Below are positions 18,001 through 21,000 of a DNA stretch of 27,206 nt, in pieces. The stretch lies in IMG/VR virus record IMGVR_UViG_2695420523_000013. One strand, 5' to 3'. The DNA is from a virus (lineage: Duplodnaviria > Heunggongvirae > Uroviricota > Caudoviricetes). Made by a program: the position numbers. Within the stretch, counting starts at the first letter, position 1, and every line of letters starts with the position of its first letter.

Positions 18001-21000
18001 AGAATCAGCGATTCTGGCGCATGCCCGGCGGTGTGTGCCTGCGGAGTCGTGCGGCTTCGTGGTGAGAACGCCGGAGGGGGAGCGGTATATCCCTTGTGTG
18101 AATATCTCTGCAGAGCCGGAGGCGTATTTTCGTATTGCACCGGAAGACTGGCTGCGGGCAGAGATGCAGGGGGAGATTGTGGCACTGGTCCACAGTCATC
18201 CCGGTGGTCTGCCCTGGCTGAGCGAGGCCGACCGGCGGCTGCAGATAAAAAGTGCACTGTCCTGGTGGCTGGTCTGCCGGGGGGAAATTCATAAATTCCG
18301 CTGTGTGCCACATCTGACAGGACGGCGCTTTGAGCACGGGGTGACGGACTGTTACACGCTGTTCCGGGATGCCTACCATCTGGCGGGAATTGATATGCCG
18401 GATTTTGAGCGTGAGGATGACTGGTGGCGCAACGGCCAGAACCTGTACCTGGACAATATGGCGGTCACCGGCTTTTACCGGGTGCCCCTGTCCTCTGCAC
18501 AGGCGGGCGATATCCTGCTGTGCTGCTTTGGCGCATCGGTGGCCAATCATGCCGCCATTTACTGCGGCAACGGTGAACTGCTTCACCATCTGCCTGAACA
18601 ACTGAGTAAACGGGAGAGGTATTCCGAAAAATGGCAACGACGAACGCATTCTGTCTGGCGTCACCGCCACTGGCACGCATCTGCCTTCACGGGGATTTGC
18701 AACGATTTGGCCGCCGCCTCAGCCTGTATGTGAACACGGCAGCGGAAGCCATTCGCGCCCTGTCGATGCAGATGCCGGGCTTTCGCCGTCAGATGAACGA
18801 AGGCTGGTACCAGATACGTATTGCCGGTGATGACACGGCACCGGAGGCGGTGTATGCCCGTCTTCACGAACAGCTGGGTGAGGGAACGGTCATCCACATT
18901 GTGCCGCGACTGGCCGGGGCCGGAAAGGGTGGACTGCAGATTGTGCTGGGGGCGGCAGCCATCGTGGGCTCTTTCTTCACGGCCGGAGGCTCGATGGCGT
19001 TATGGGGTACAGCCCTGAGTGCCGGTGGTTTTTCTGCCACCACGATGCTGTTTTCACTGGGGGCCAGCATGATACTGGGCGGAGTGGCCCAGATGCTGGC
19101 CCCGAAGGCAAAAACACCGGATTACCGCGCAACGGATAACGGCAGACAGAACACGTACTTTTCCTCGCTGGATAACATGATTGCCCAGGGGAACCCGATG
19201 CCGGTGCCTTACGGGGAAATGCTGGTTGGCTCCCGCTGTATATCCCAGGACATCAGCACCCGTGATGAAGGCGGGGGCGGAAAGGTCGTGGTTATCGGGC
19301 GGCAGGGGTAAAAAGAATAAAAAAATCCCGCAGTGATCGCGGACAGGAACTGCGGGAGAGTTACGAAGATTAAGTGTAAGGAATTATTCTTATGTCACGA
19401 CAAAAACATTAACACAGAGAAATTATTAGCACCACAGTCAGTTTGTGAAAATGTGAAGATATTCAGAAGTTTTATTCAGTGATGATACAGGCATCCTCAG
19501 GGATGCCTGTTGTTTTTGTGCGTAACAGTTATCACAGTAAAGAGTGAGACAATGGGCAAAGGTGGCGGCAGGGCGCACACGCCTCGAGAGGCGAAGGATA
19601 ATCTCAAATCCACGCAGATGATGAGTGTGATTGATGCGATTGGTGAGGGACCGATAGAAGGCCCGGTGAAAGGCCTGCAGAGTATTCTGGTGAACAAAAC
19701 CCCGCTGACGGGCACGGACGGTAATCCCGTGATACACGGTATGACTGCGGTCTGGCGTGCCGGGGAGCAGGAGCAGACACCACCGGAAGGCTTTGAGTCC
19801 TCCGGAGCTGAAACCGGACTGGGCGTGGAAGTGACGAAGGCAAAGCCGGTGACGCGCACCATTACGTCCGCGAACATTGACCGCCTGCGGGTTACCTTCG
19901 GGGTGCAGTCACTGGTGGAGACCACCTCAAAGGGTGACCGTAACCCGACGTCTGTCCGCCTGCTGATTCAGCTTGAGCGTGGTGGTAAATGGATGACGGA
20001 AAAGGATGTCACCATTAACGGCAAGACCACCTCGCAGTTCCTGGCGTCGGTGATTCTGGAGAATCTGCCGCCCCGGCCCTTTAACATCCGGATGGTCAGG
20101 GAGACGGCGGACAGCACCACAGACCAGCTGCAGAACAGAACGCTGTGGTCGTCATACACCGAAATCATCGATGTGAAACAGTGCTACCCGAACACGGCGA
20201 TTGTGGGGCTGCAGGTGGATGCGGAGCAGTTTGGCGGTCAGCAGATGACGGTGAACTACCATATCCGCGGTCGCATCATCCAGGTACCGTCAAACTATGA
20301 CCCGGAAAAACGCACGTACAGCGGCATCTGGGACGGCAGCCTGAAACCGGCATACAGCAACAACCCGGCCTGGTGCCTGTGGGACATGCTGACTCACCCG
20401 CGCTACGGCATGGGAAAACGTCTGGGGGCGGCAGACGTGGACAAATGGGCGCTGTATGCCATCGGGCAGTACTGCGACCAGACGGTCCCGGATGGTTTCG
20501 GGGGCACAGAGCCGCGGATGACCTTTAATGCGTACCTGTCACAACAGCGTAAGGCATGGGATGTGCTCAGTGATTTCTGCTCGGCGATGCGCTGTATGCC
20601 GGTATGGAACGGCCAGACGCTGACGTTCGTTCAGGACCGCCCGTCGGATGTGGTGTGGCCGTACACCAACAGCGATGTGGTGGTGGATGATAACGGCGTG
20701 GGGTTTCGCTACAGCTTCAGCGCCCTGAAGGACCGCCACACGGCGGTGGAGGTGAATTACACCGACCCGCAGAACGGCTGGCAGACCTCCACGGAACTGG
20801 TGGAAGACCCGGAAGCCATACTGCGCTACGGGCGCAACCTGCTGAAGATGGATGCGTTCGGTTGCACCAGTCGCGGTCAGGCCCACCGTGCCGGGCTGTG
20901 GGTGATAAAGACCGGACTGCTGGAAACGCAGACGGTGGATTTCACGCTCGGGTCACAGGGGCTGCGTCACACACCCGGTGACATTATTGAAATCTGTGAT

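What the first reader, a model, noticed from the sequence alone, without database searches (positions are those of the whole stretch)
19312..19551. 240-bp AT-rich non-coding insert between tail genes I and J, ending in a strong intrinsic terminator just before J
As I recall lambda, I and J are essentially contiguous. Here a 240-bp low-GC spacer with no convincing ORF separates them. It contains an 8-bp-stem hairpin (CCCGCAGT...ACTGCGGG, 19327-19356) and a perfect 10-bp-stem hairpin with a T-tract (19487-19518) only 34 nt upstream of the J start. That is consistent with a small transcript (sRNA) ending there, or an attenuator controlling J expression. The compositional contrast suggests horizontal acquisition.
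Basis: partly seen in the sequence, partly recalled or inferred. Interest (0 to 1): 0.55.

Follow-up and report, generated by a model that had tools for sequence, protein, structure and literature searches.

The report
Known prophage sRNA gene between tail genes
The AT-rich gap between tail genes I and J holds a copy of an already described Hfq-dependent prophage small RNA (PasB, also called EcOnc22-24), which runs antisense to the tail genes, so the feature is real but not new.

Summary
There is a 240-bp low-GC spacer (19312-19551) between I and J with two strong hairpins.

The spacer does encode a small RNA, but on the minus strand. Its intrinsic terminator is the first hairpin (19357-19326 plus U7 at 19325-19319), not the 10-bp hairpin in front of J.

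It belongs to a published family:
- EcOnc22/23/24 of O157 Sakai: Hfq-CRAC peaks, ~85-nt northern band, lost in Δhfq.
- PasB of EPEC E2348/69: 83 nt, Hfq-dependent, with RIL-seq partners that include ler, perB and bfp genes.

Both published northern probes carry the tail-gene-strand sequence of this region. A covariance model built without the window finds 19418-19316 (minus) at 71 bits.

The 10-bp hairpin with a T-tract before J (19487-19519) looks like part of the native J leader. Lambda's own 60-bp I-J spacer has a stem-loop with a U-rich tail at the same place. Its function (insulator or attenuator for polymerase not modified by Q, or an mRNA stability element) is inferred only.

Related prophages carry sodC, also antisense, at the same junction, so this is a cargo (moron) insertion site.

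Novelty is low: a known sRNA family whose physiological role is still unknown.

The parts
18631..19311 (+). Tail assembly gene I (left flank); stop codon TAA at 19309-19311
   Evidence: ORF list. Pfam Lambda_tail_I, 1.8e-16. Annotated 'tail assembly protein' in homologous loci.
19319..19415 (-). PasB / EcOnc22-family sRNA gene. The predicted primary transcript runs from G19415 to the U7 tract ending at 19319 (97 nt). The position matching the 5' end annotated for E2348/69 PasB (83 nt, from RNA-seq coverage) is about 19400.
   Evidence: A covariance model built from 12 family members, excluding the window, hits 19418-19316 (minus) at 71.4 bits, E 1.5e-12, full length. Identity is 77.6% to PasB and 74.2% to Sakai EcOnc22. 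Published probes and coordinates.
19319..19357 (-). Intrinsic terminator of the sRNA. This is hairpin A read on the minus strand: CCCGCAG(U)-loop-(A)CUGCGGG, then A and U7 (19325-19319).
   Evidence: Terminator scan, minus strand. Inverted repeat. The 7-bp stem is present in 19 of 20 variants with no covariation, and it is the only consensus helix. The U-tract is conserved.
19358..19400 (-). Single-stranded body of the sRNA. It holds the conserved UUAAUCUUC (19374-19366), an A-rich (ARN)n-like stretch AAGAAUAAU and the CUCC/UUCC motif. This is the probable seed and Hfq distal-face region. The 5' half varies between prophages.
   Evidence: Alignments. No conserved pairing outside the terminator. 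Zhu et al. place the PasB seed just upstream of the terminator.
19422..19449 (-). Sigma-70-like promoter of the sRNA: -35 TTCACA (19449-19444), 16-nt spacer, -10 AATAAT (19427-19422). The -10 is TATAAT in many relatives. A conserved CTG lies 5-7 nt downstream.
   Evidence: Promoter scan: the only promoter-like sites in 18800-20000, both on the minus strand, 2 found against 0.6 expected. The -10 is conserved in alignments.
19449..19484 (.). The most conserved block of the spacer, AAATGTGAAGATATTCAGAAnTTTTATTCnGTnATGA. Its left 20 nt stay with the sRNA promoter in recombinant junction classes, so it is a probable upstream promoter or regulator-binding element. It contains TGTGA-N6-TCAGA.
   Evidence: Alignment. 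The block is retained in the 336-343-bp class and in L066, which lack hairpin B. Partial BLAST hits cover only 19447-19518.
19487..19519 (+). Hairpin B: perfect 10-bp stem, 4-nt loop, then UGUUUUUGU. A + strand intrinsic-terminator-like element in the J leader.
   Evidence: The stem is kept in 8 distinct variants, with one compensatory pair (U-A / C-G, with a U.G intermediate). Lambda has a stem-loop with a U-rich tail at the same place.
19540..19554 (+). J ribosome-binding region (AAGAGTGAGACA) and ATG start codon (19552-19554)
   Evidence: Sequence. Similar to lambda GGAGCGTGAGGA-ATG. J domains by Pfam.

Best explanation
The spacer is a composite of two elements.

**1. A self-contained sRNA transcription unit on the minus strand, about 19319-19470.**
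- It consists of a sigma-70 promoter (-10 at 19427-19422), a transcript of about 85-97 nt and an intrinsic terminator. The terminator is hairpin A plus a U7 tract that abuts the I stop codon.
- It is a member of the prophage sRNA family published as EcOnc22/23/24 (EHEC Sakai) and PasB (EPEC E2348/69).
- By homology, it is made in the lysogen while the late genes are silent. It is stabilised by Hfq and acts in trans by imperfect base pairing, through its single-stranded U/C-rich region upstream of the terminator.
- Its RIL-seq partners in EPEC include ler, perB, bfpB, bfpI, ftsZ and galE.
- In effect it is an sRNA 'moron', inserted antisense into the late operon.

**2. The native leader of J, about 19487-19551.**
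- Its 10-bp hairpin plus U-tract acts on + strand RNA.
- Inferred: it stops RNA polymerase that has not been modified by Q (stray prophage transcription) before J, and is read through during Q-antiterminated late transcription. It may also serve as a 3' stabiliser of the upstream message.

**Shown and inferred.** Shown here: anatomy, homology, strand and conservation. Shown by others for homologues: expression, size, Hfq dependence and RNA partners. Inferred: expression of this particular copy, its exact 5' end, its targets and the role of hairpin B.
For: **Homology**
- The 240-bp spacer matches I-J spacers in 1380 of 5426 complete E. coli genomes, with up to 8 places per genome. It also matches 149 phage records, all with Stx-converting, Escherichia or Enterobacteria phage names.

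**Identity with published sRNAs**
- Tree et al. 2014, Table S2, lists EcOnc22, 23 and 24 in Sp15, Sp14 and Sp11. They are on the strand opposite the tail genes, give an ~85-nt northern band and are destabilised in Δhfq.
- Their probe GGGAGAGAACGATGAAGATTAAC maps inside the Sp15 I-J spacer on the tail-gene strand.
- After a +142 shift between genome versions, checked with the AsxR probe and the stx2B coordinates, the CRAC peak covers the probe.
- PasB is annotated at NC_011601 1466343->1466261, minus strand, 83 nt, probe AATCCCGCAGTGATCGCGGAGCT. It lies in the 240-bp I-J spacer of prophage PP6.

**Membership**
- The covariance model built without the window scores 71.4 bits, E 1.5e-12, over its full length on the minus strand.

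**Signals in the window**
- The only promoter-like sites are on the minus strand, and hairpin A scans as a minus-strand terminator.
- The -10 element, the terminator and the U7 tract are conserved across 20 variants.

**Expression in lysogens**
- pasB has an RNA-seq BaseMean of 482-1082, against 4.8 for I and 15 for J. It falls by log2 6.8 in Δhfq.

**Partners**
- RIL-seq chimeras are listed.

**Hairpin B**
- Perfect stem with a T-tract on the + strand.
- One compensatory pair, with a U.G intermediate that can pair only in + strand RNA.
- Lambda-type 59-60-bp spacers carry a stem-loop with a U-rich tail at the same place.
Against: - No transcript data exist for this window.
- The copy is only about 75-78% identical to the two experimentally studied homologues. 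The 5' half, where targets may be specified, differs.
- The -35 element is weakly conserved; Sakai has TTCCGG.
- The predicted 97-nt length exceeds the 83-85 nt seen for homologues. Either the 5' end is processed, the start site is further downstream, or the published sizes are approximate.
- The terminator stem shows no covariation because it is invariant.
- For hairpin B, strand discrimination from wobble pairs is weak: 98.8% of cells paired on the + strand against 97.5% on the minus strand.
- The simple terminator scan did not call the lambda counterpart.
- No data show termination at hairpin B.
Confidence: 0.85

Rival explanations
1. One reading: a small + strand transcript (sRNA) is made within the spacer and ends at hairpin B near 19518.
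For: - Hairpin B has the shape of an sRNA 3' module: GC-rich stem, U-tract and a U-rich stretch (GUUUUAUUC) just upstream.
- The 40 nt upstream of it are the most conserved part of the spacer.
- BLAST hits in diverged phages cover only 19447-19518.
Against: - No + strand promoter-like site in 18800-20000.
- Tree et al. list no Hfq peak on the tail-gene strand at these junctions.
- No RNA from this intergenic region or from the J 5' UTR appears in the EPEC RIL-seq tables.
- In the 336-343-bp class and in L066, the conserved block stays with the minus-strand promoter while hairpin B is replaced. The block therefore belongs to the PasB promoter.
- Lambda has its hairpin only about 20 nt after the I stop codon, which leaves no room for a promoter.
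Confidence: 0.08
2. Hairpin B does not terminate transcription at all. It is an mRNA processing or stability element (a 3' protective stem-loop for the upstream tail message), or a structure that keeps the J ribosome-binding site accessible.
For: - Late transcription is Q-antiterminated and reads through intrinsic terminators (established lambda biology).
- The stem is conserved with a compensatory change.
- The lambda counterpart is not called as a terminator by the scan.
- The fold of 19480-19560 keeps hairpin B separate from the J start region.
Against: - The conserved U-tract directly after a 10-bp GC-rich stem is the classic terminator signature, and it is conserved in all 8 distinct variants.
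- A stability element would not need the U-tract.
Confidence: 0.25
3. The spacer is a decayed remnant of a protein-coding moron, either sodC or the 49-codon + strand ORF, with no function of its own.
For: - Eight related loci carry a 175-aa Cu,Zn superoxide dismutase gene at this junction, on the minus strand.
- A 49-codon ORF spans 19333-19482.
Against: - sodC-bearing junctions share only the sRNA module (about the first 105-155 bp) with the window. No sodC-derived sequence is present in the window.
- The 49-codon ORF is not conserved: 9-107 codons, with the start lost in three variants. It has no Pfam match.
- The homologous RNA is expressed and Hfq-dependent in two pathotypes.
Confidence: 0.03

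Closest known systems
PasB sRNA of EPEC E2348/69 (Pearl Mizrahi et al. 2021, PMC8550237; distribution in Zhu, Shabalina and Storz 2026, bioRxiv 10.64898/2026.05.13.724894)
   Same: - Same genomic slot: a 240-bp spacer between tail genes I and J, antisense to them.
- Same terminator: CCCGCAG...CUGCGGGAU7.
- Same -10 region, and the conserved AUCUUC and CUCC motifs.
- A covariance model that includes PasB hits the window at 71 bits.
   Different: - 77.6% identity over the predicted transcript.
- The 5' half and the spacer between the motifs differ.
- The 9-nt PasB-ler complementarity (UCCUUCACA) is not kept in the window variant (UCCUUACAC).
- Expression of this copy is untested.
EcOnc22/23/24 of EHEC O157:H7 Sakai prophages Sp15, Sp14 and Sp11 (Tree et al. 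2014, PMC4104026, Table S2)
   Same: - Same slot, strand and terminator.
- Hfq-bound, ~85-nt northern band, destabilised without Hfq.
   Different: - 74.2% identity, with a different 5' region and a different -35.
- The function of these sRNAs is listed as unknown in the 2021 review PMC7873438.
- The papers read here do not cross-reference EcOnc22-24 and PasB.
Anti-sRNAs AgvB and AsxR, and HnrS (other lambdoid prophage sRNAs)
   Same: - Short Hfq-binding sRNAs carried as non-coding cargo in lambdoid prophages.
- A conserved 3' scaffold with a variable 5' region.
- Multicopy through multiple prophages.
   Different: - Different loci: downstream of PR', or after the lysis genes.
- No sequence relation. 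Rfam holds AgvB (RF02702) and AsxR (RF02703) models (accessions from the paper read), and neither matched.
- The HnrS segment is absent from the window.
The I-J junction of phage lambda
   Same: - The genes are in the same order.
- A GC-rich stem-loop followed by a U-rich stretch lies shortly before the J ribosome-binding site.
- The RBS is similar: GAG(C/T)GTGAG(G/A)A-ATG.
   Different: - Lambda's spacer is 59-60 bp and has no sRNA unit.
- Its stem sequence is unrelated, and the simple scan does not call it a terminator.
Prophage sodC morons (sodC-F1/F2 of O157; D'Orazio et al. 2008, PMC2569942)
   Same: - In 8 related loci sodC occupies this same I-J junction, also on the strand antisense to the late operon.
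- It lies upstream of, and in the same orientation as, the PasB module.
   Different: - Protein-coding cargo.
- Not present in this window.

Membership tests
PasB / EcOnc22-24 prophage sRNA family | Encoded in the spacer between lambdoid tail genes I and J, on the strand antisense to them | tested here: met
   Window: I 18631-19311 (+), J from 19552 (+), sRNA signals on the minus strand. Same arrangement in Sakai Sp15, Sp14 and Sp11 and in E2348/69 PP6.
PasB / EcOnc22-24 prophage sRNA family | Sequence and structure similarity to known members | tested here: met
   The covariance model built from 12 members, excluding the window and its near-identical variants, scores 71.4 bits, E 1.5e-12, model positions 1-102 of 102, at 19418-19316 (minus). 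The next best hit scores 13.5 bits. Identity is 74-78% to the two studied members.
PasB / EcOnc22-24 prophage sRNA family | 3' intrinsic terminator CCCGCAG-loop-CUGCGGG followed by A and U7 | tested here: met
   (stem present in 19 of 20 variants; the U-tract is conserved).
PasB / EcOnc22-24 prophage sRNA family | Own sigma-70 promoter upstream on the same strand | tested here: met
   TTCACA-16-AATAAT at 19449-19422. The -10 is conserved, and is TATAAT in many relatives. This is a consensus prediction only.
PasB / EcOnc22-24 prophage sRNA family | Expressed as an RNA of about 83-85 nt in lysogens | not testable with these tools
   Shown for homologues only. The predicted length here is 97 nt from the promoter, or about 82 nt from the position matching the PasB 5' end.
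PasB / EcOnc22-24 prophage sRNA family | Hfq binding and Hfq-dependent stability | not testable with these tools
   The sequence has the usual Hfq module (terminator hairpin plus U7) and an A-rich ARN-like stretch. Binding itself is shown only for homologues.
Rfam MicX (RF01808) | Score at or above the family gathering threshold (75 bits) | tested here: not met
   27.1 bits on the minus strand, 19519-19319. The alignment rests on two hairpins only. Nothing in the spacer reaches a gathering score.
Anti-sRNA family AgvB / AsxR | Match to Rfam AgvB or AsxR; location in the moron site downstream of PR'; 51-60 nt | tested here: not met
   No AgvB or AsxR hit at E<=10 in 19200-19650, nor at gathering score in the whole window. 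The location differs.
Intrinsic (Rho-independent) terminator, for hairpin B on the + strand | GC-rich stem, short loop, U-tract immediately 3' | tested here: met
   10 pairs, 6 of them G-C, 4-nt loop, tail TGTTTTTGT. The stem and the T-tract are conserved in 8 distinct variants.
Intrinsic (Rho-independent) terminator, for hairpin B on the + strand | Actual termination of RNA polymerase, with read-through by Q-modified polymerase | not testable with these tools
   No Term-seq or in vitro data were accessible. The supplements of the Sakai Term-seq paper are not held.

The most novel reading that the evidence does not exclude
PasB-type sRNAs may act not only in trans on host and virulence mRNAs but also in cis or in 'family-trans'. 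The sRNA is perfectly complementary to the I-J junction of the late mRNA of its own prophage, and nearly so to that of co-resident or superinfecting lambdoid relatives (up to 8 copies of the spacer per genome). Pairing could trigger RNase III cleavage between I and J. Together with the Q-dependent hairpin B, that would gate production of the tail-tip protein J: a lysogen-expressed brake on tail assembly, or a cross-prophage interference mechanism.
Probability: 0.1. Interest if true: 0.6.

Novelty: already known. Interest (0 to 1): 0.3.

Why it matters
- **Annotation.** None of the genome or phage records examined annotates anything in this spacer, and Rfam has no family for it. Yet it is present in about a quarter of complete E. 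coli genomes, often in several copies.
- **Linking two literatures.** Recognising that EcOnc22-24 and PasB are one family connects the EHEC and EPEC work. It shows that the I-J junction is a second conserved site for sRNA and other cargo in lambdoid prophages, shared with sodC.
- **Regulatory significance.** PasB forms RIL-seq chimeras with ler, perB and bfp mRNAs, so variants with different 5' regions may tune virulence regulation differently between strains.
- **What it does not do.** It does not open a new kind of mechanism.

Tried and rejected
- **Rfam.** At gathering thresholds over the whole window, the only hit was ALIL at the far end. A permissive scan of the spacer gave a 27-bit MicX-like hit, rejected as two generic hairpins.
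- **AgvB/AsxR.** My first recollection placed AgvB here. The paper places it downstream of PR', so this was rejected.
- **HnrS (66 nt, multicopy).** I considered it as a candidate for a + strand RNA ending at hairpin B. It maps after the lysis genes in Sp10, and that segment is not in the window, so this was rejected.
- **+ strand ORF 19333-19482.** Not conserved and no domain.
- **Strand assignment of hairpin B from wobble pairs.** Only a weak signal: 98.8% against 97.5% of cells paired.
- **Covariation in the sRNA.** Only the invariant terminator is a consensus helix, so there is no covariation support.
- **Target prediction.** RNAduplex against the ler and ftsZ RIL-seq fragments did no better than shuffled sRNAs. 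The longest-helix test gave one modest result for PasB-ler (9 nt, reached by 10 of 300 shuffles), and that match is not kept in the window variant.
- **CRP-like site TGTGA-N6-TCAGA (19452-19467).** Its centre is near -44.5 from the predicted start, which is not canonical class II spacing. It remains a lead only.
- **Lambda pre-J hairpin.** It folds well, but the simple terminator scan does not call it. 'Terminator' is therefore unproven for lambda.
- **Literature.** A search for a described terminator between lambda I and J found nothing relevant. The Term-seq supplements for Sakai are not held.
- **Other species.** The genome-contig scan added only E. albertii and three probably contaminated assemblies.
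Full report
**1. The observation**

The window carries a lambda-like tail module. The I ORF (18631-19311, Pfam Lambda_tail_I) ends with TAA at 19309-19311. J (Pfam FNIII-A_GpJ) starts at ATG 19552. The 240 bp between them have a GC content of 0.35-0.40, against roughly 0.55-0.65 on either side.

Both hairpins exist as described.
- Hairpin A has arms 19326-19334 and 19349-19357: 9 bp with a 14-nt loop.
- Hairpin B has arms 19487-19496 and 19501-19510: 10 bp, perfect, with a 4-nt loop, followed by TGTTTTTGT.

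The consensus scan finds 5 terminator-like sites in 18800-20000, against 0.9 +/- 0.9 in shuffles. It calls B on the + strand. It calls A on the minus strand, because A is preceded on the + strand by seven A's, which become a U7 tail on the minus strand. The only promoter-like sites in this 1.2 kb are on the minus strand: TTCACA-16-AATAAT at 19449-19422.

**2. What it is**

The spacer has close relatives in 1380 of 5426 complete E. coli genomes, with up to 8 places per genome. It also matches 149 phage records, all with Stx-converting, Escherichia or Enterobacteria phage names. It is never annotated.

*EHEC.* In O157:H7 Sakai, the same 240-bp spacer separates I and J in prophages Sp15, Sp14 and Sp11. 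Tree et al. 2014 (PMC4104026, Table S2) list three homologous Hfq-CRAC peaks, EcOnc22, 23 and 24, in exactly these prophages. They lie on the strand opposite the tail genes, give a northern band of ~85 nt and are destabilised in Δhfq.

Their northern probe (GGGAGAGAACGATGAAGATTAAC...) maps inside the Sp15 spacer and has the sequence of the tail-gene strand, so it detects the antisense RNA. The published coordinates refer to an older genome version. A shift of +142 was checked with the AsxR probe and the stx2B coordinates. With that shift, the peak lies on the probe.

*EPEC.* Pearl Mizrahi et al. 2021 (PMC8550237, Table S6) describe PasB in E2348/69 at NC_011601 1466343->1466261, minus strand, 83 nt, in prophage PP6, with probe AATCCCGCAGTGATCGCGGAGCT. 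This lies in the 240-bp I-J spacer of PP6, and the probe is the hairpin A region on the tail-gene strand. PasB and EcOnc22-24 are therefore one family.

Table S6 notes EHEC homologues for PasA and PasD but not for PasB. The 2026 survey of Pas sRNAs does not mention EcOnc names.

*Membership.* I tested membership independently. A covariance model built from 12 family members, leaving out the window and its near-identical variants, hits the window at 19418-19316 on the minus strand. The score is 71.4 bits (E 1.5e-12) over the whole model, and the next best hit in 27 kb scores 13.5 bits. Identity is 77.6% to PasB and 74.2% to Sakai EcOnc22.

**3. Anatomy of the sRNA unit**

Across 20 distinct variants, these elements are conserved:
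- the -10 element (AATAAT or TATAAT);
- a CTG 5-7 nt downstream of it;
- the motif UUAAUCUUC;
- a CUCC/UUCC motif preceded by an A-rich ARN-like run;
- the terminator stem and the U7 tract.

The 5' half and the -35 vary. RNAalifold finds only the terminator helix as a consensus structure. That helix is invariant, so it offers no covariation evidence. This layout, a mostly unstructured body followed by a terminator and a U-tail, is typical of Hfq-dependent sRNAs.

From the promoter, the predicted transcript is G19415 to 19319 (97 nt). The homologues are reported as 83-85 nt, and the position matching the coverage-based 5' end of PasB is about 19400. The 5' end is therefore uncertain.

**4. How it most likely works**

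From the homologues:
- The sRNA is expressed in lysogens while the flanking late genes are nearly silent. RNA-seq BaseMean is 482-1082 for pasB, against 4.8 for I and 15 for J.
- It is strongly Hfq-dependent, falling by log2 6.8 in Δhfq.
- It forms RIL-seq chimeras, as the 3' partner, with ler, perB, bfpB, bfpI, ftsZ, galE and rplX.

I infer that the window copy is a trans-acting, Hfq-dependent, base-pairing sRNA carried as non-coding cargo.

My own target predictions were inconclusive. RNAduplex energies were no better than those of shuffled sRNAs. PasB has a 9-nt perfect match to the ler fragment, a length reached by 10 of 300 shuffles, but the window variant does not keep it. This hints that variants may differ in their targets. 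No physiological function has been established; the 2021 review lists it as 'unknown'.

**5. Hairpin B**

It is on the other side of the sRNA promoter and faces J. On the minus strand it has no U-tract, so it is a + strand element.

In 8 distinct variants the stem is maintained, with one compensatory pair (U-A to C-G). The U.G intermediate can pair only in + strand RNA. The strand contrast is nonetheless small: 98.8% of cells paired on the + strand against 97.5% on the minus strand.

The decisive comparison is with lambda. In 81 lambda-type loci the I-J spacer is 59-60 bp, and each carries a stem-loop (AAACCGCC-TNNG-GGCGGTTT) followed by a U-rich stretch about 20 nt before the J ATG. The motifs around it are similar: AAAATG...TTTTAT...GTGA upstream and GAGCGTGAGGA-ATG downstream.

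Hairpin B therefore appears to belong to the native J leader. The roughly 180-bp sRNA unit is what has been added relative to lambda.

The simple scan does not call the lambda hairpin a terminator, and I found no paper describing it.

I infer that hairpin B stops polymerase that is not Q-modified before J, and is read through in late transcription. A purely structural or mRNA-stability role is the main alternative.

**6. Is a + strand sRNA ending at B plausible?**

The 40 nt upstream of B are the most conserved part of the spacer, which at first suggests an RNA body. Four points argue against this.
- In the 336-343-bp junction class and in L066, this block stays attached to the minus-strand promoter while hairpin B is replaced by other sequence.
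- No + strand promoter is predicted.
- No Hfq peak or RIL-seq RNA is reported on that strand.
- Lambda has no room for a promoter upstream of its hairpin.

The block is more likely an upstream element of the PasB promoter. It contains TGTGA-N6-TCAGA, a CRP-like pattern, but the spacing is not canonical.

**7. The junction as a cargo site**

Among 80 loci whose I proteins are 97-100% identical to the window's, the spacer falls into four length classes:

| Spacer length | Loci |
|---|---|
| 234-250 bp | 27 |
| 295 bp | 1 |
| 336-343 bp | 47 |
| 848-903 bp | 7 |

The long class carries a Cu,Zn superoxide dismutase gene (Pfam Sod_Cu, 8e-32) on the minus strand. It lies upstream of, and in the same orientation as, the PasB module.

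In some of these loci the PasB promoter is replaced, so the sRNA body sits in the region downstream of sodC. All cargo at this junction is antisense to the late operon, and hairpin A is the last terminator before I.

It rules out a decayed gene, because the window shares only the sRNA module with the sodC loci. The 49-codon + strand ORF is not conserved.

**8. Verdict**

It is a member of a known, experimentally detected sRNA family whose physiological role is still open.

Novelty is low. The modest additions are:
- the PasB = EcOnc22-24 equivalence;
- the composite anatomy of the junction;
- the link between hairpin B and lambda's own I-J spacer;
- the co-location of sodC.

Noticed in passing
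window 27094-27206 (+): Rfam ALIL pseudoknot (RF01497), the frameshift element of IS3-family transposases: 104.7 bits, E 1.9e-26, cut off by the window end. An IS element therefore lies at the right end of the window.
   Followed up: no
L047, L017, L064 and about 44 other loci, I-J spacer (e.g. L047:682-1024): The commonest junction class among close relatives is 336-343 bp. Its left ~165 bp match the window (PasB unit plus promoter block). The hairpin B part is replaced by unrelated sequence that holds a strong, bidirectional-looking hairpin, AAAACCCCGGTATC-TGCT-GATACCGGGGTTT. The J N-terminus also differs.
   Followed up: partly
L066:2422-2949 (-), and L031, L055, L062, L072, L085, L090: A periplasmic Cu,Zn superoxide dismutase gene (sodC, Pfam Sod_Cu 8e-32) sits in the same I-J junction. 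It is antisense to the tail genes and directly upstream of the PasB module. In the 848-851-bp loci the PasB promoter is missing, so the sRNA body would lie in the region downstream of sodC.
   Followed up: partly
window 19449-19467: The near-invariant block AAATGTGAAGATATTCAGA lies upstream of the PasB -35 and contains TGTGA-N6-TCAGA, which resembles a CRP site. Its centre is about -44.5 from the predicted start, which is not canonical class II spacing. PasB is reported to be higher under 'non-activating' growth in EPEC.
   Followed up: no
L087 (NZ_JBHTEB010000006.1, 'Streptomyces flavalbus'), L089 ('Parendozoicomonas haliclonae'), L090 ('Clostridiales' MAG): Short contigs in assemblies of unrelated organisms encode this E. 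coli-type tail protein I at 90-97% identity, with the PasB spacer in L087 and L090. These are most likely E. coli or prophage contamination of those assemblies.
   Followed up: no
window 2788-2973: This stretch is 95% identical to the sequence next to hnrS (EcOnc11) downstream of the lysis genes in Sakai prophage Sp10. The alignment stops just before the hnrS segment, so HnrS itself seems absent or replaced here.
   Followed up: partly
L002 and L004 (Sakai Sp15 and Sp14, NC_002695.2 2899218-2902690 and 2673143-2676621): In Sp15 and Sp14, J is annotated as two overlapping CDSs (ECs_2943/2944 and ECs_2719/2720), so it is apparently disrupted. The PasB-type sRNA next to it is still detected by CRAC and northern blot. 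The sRNA therefore outlives tail function in defective prophages.
   Followed up: no
Literature (PMC8550237 Table S6; bioRxiv 10.64898/2026.05.13.724894; PMC4104026 Table S2): PasB (EPEC) and EcOnc22/23/24 (EHEC) are the same sRNA family by locus, strand, terminator and probe sequence. The texts read here do not cross-reference them. BLAST-based surveys that start from E2348/69 PasB may miss the diverged variants, which are 74-78% identical.
   Followed up: yes
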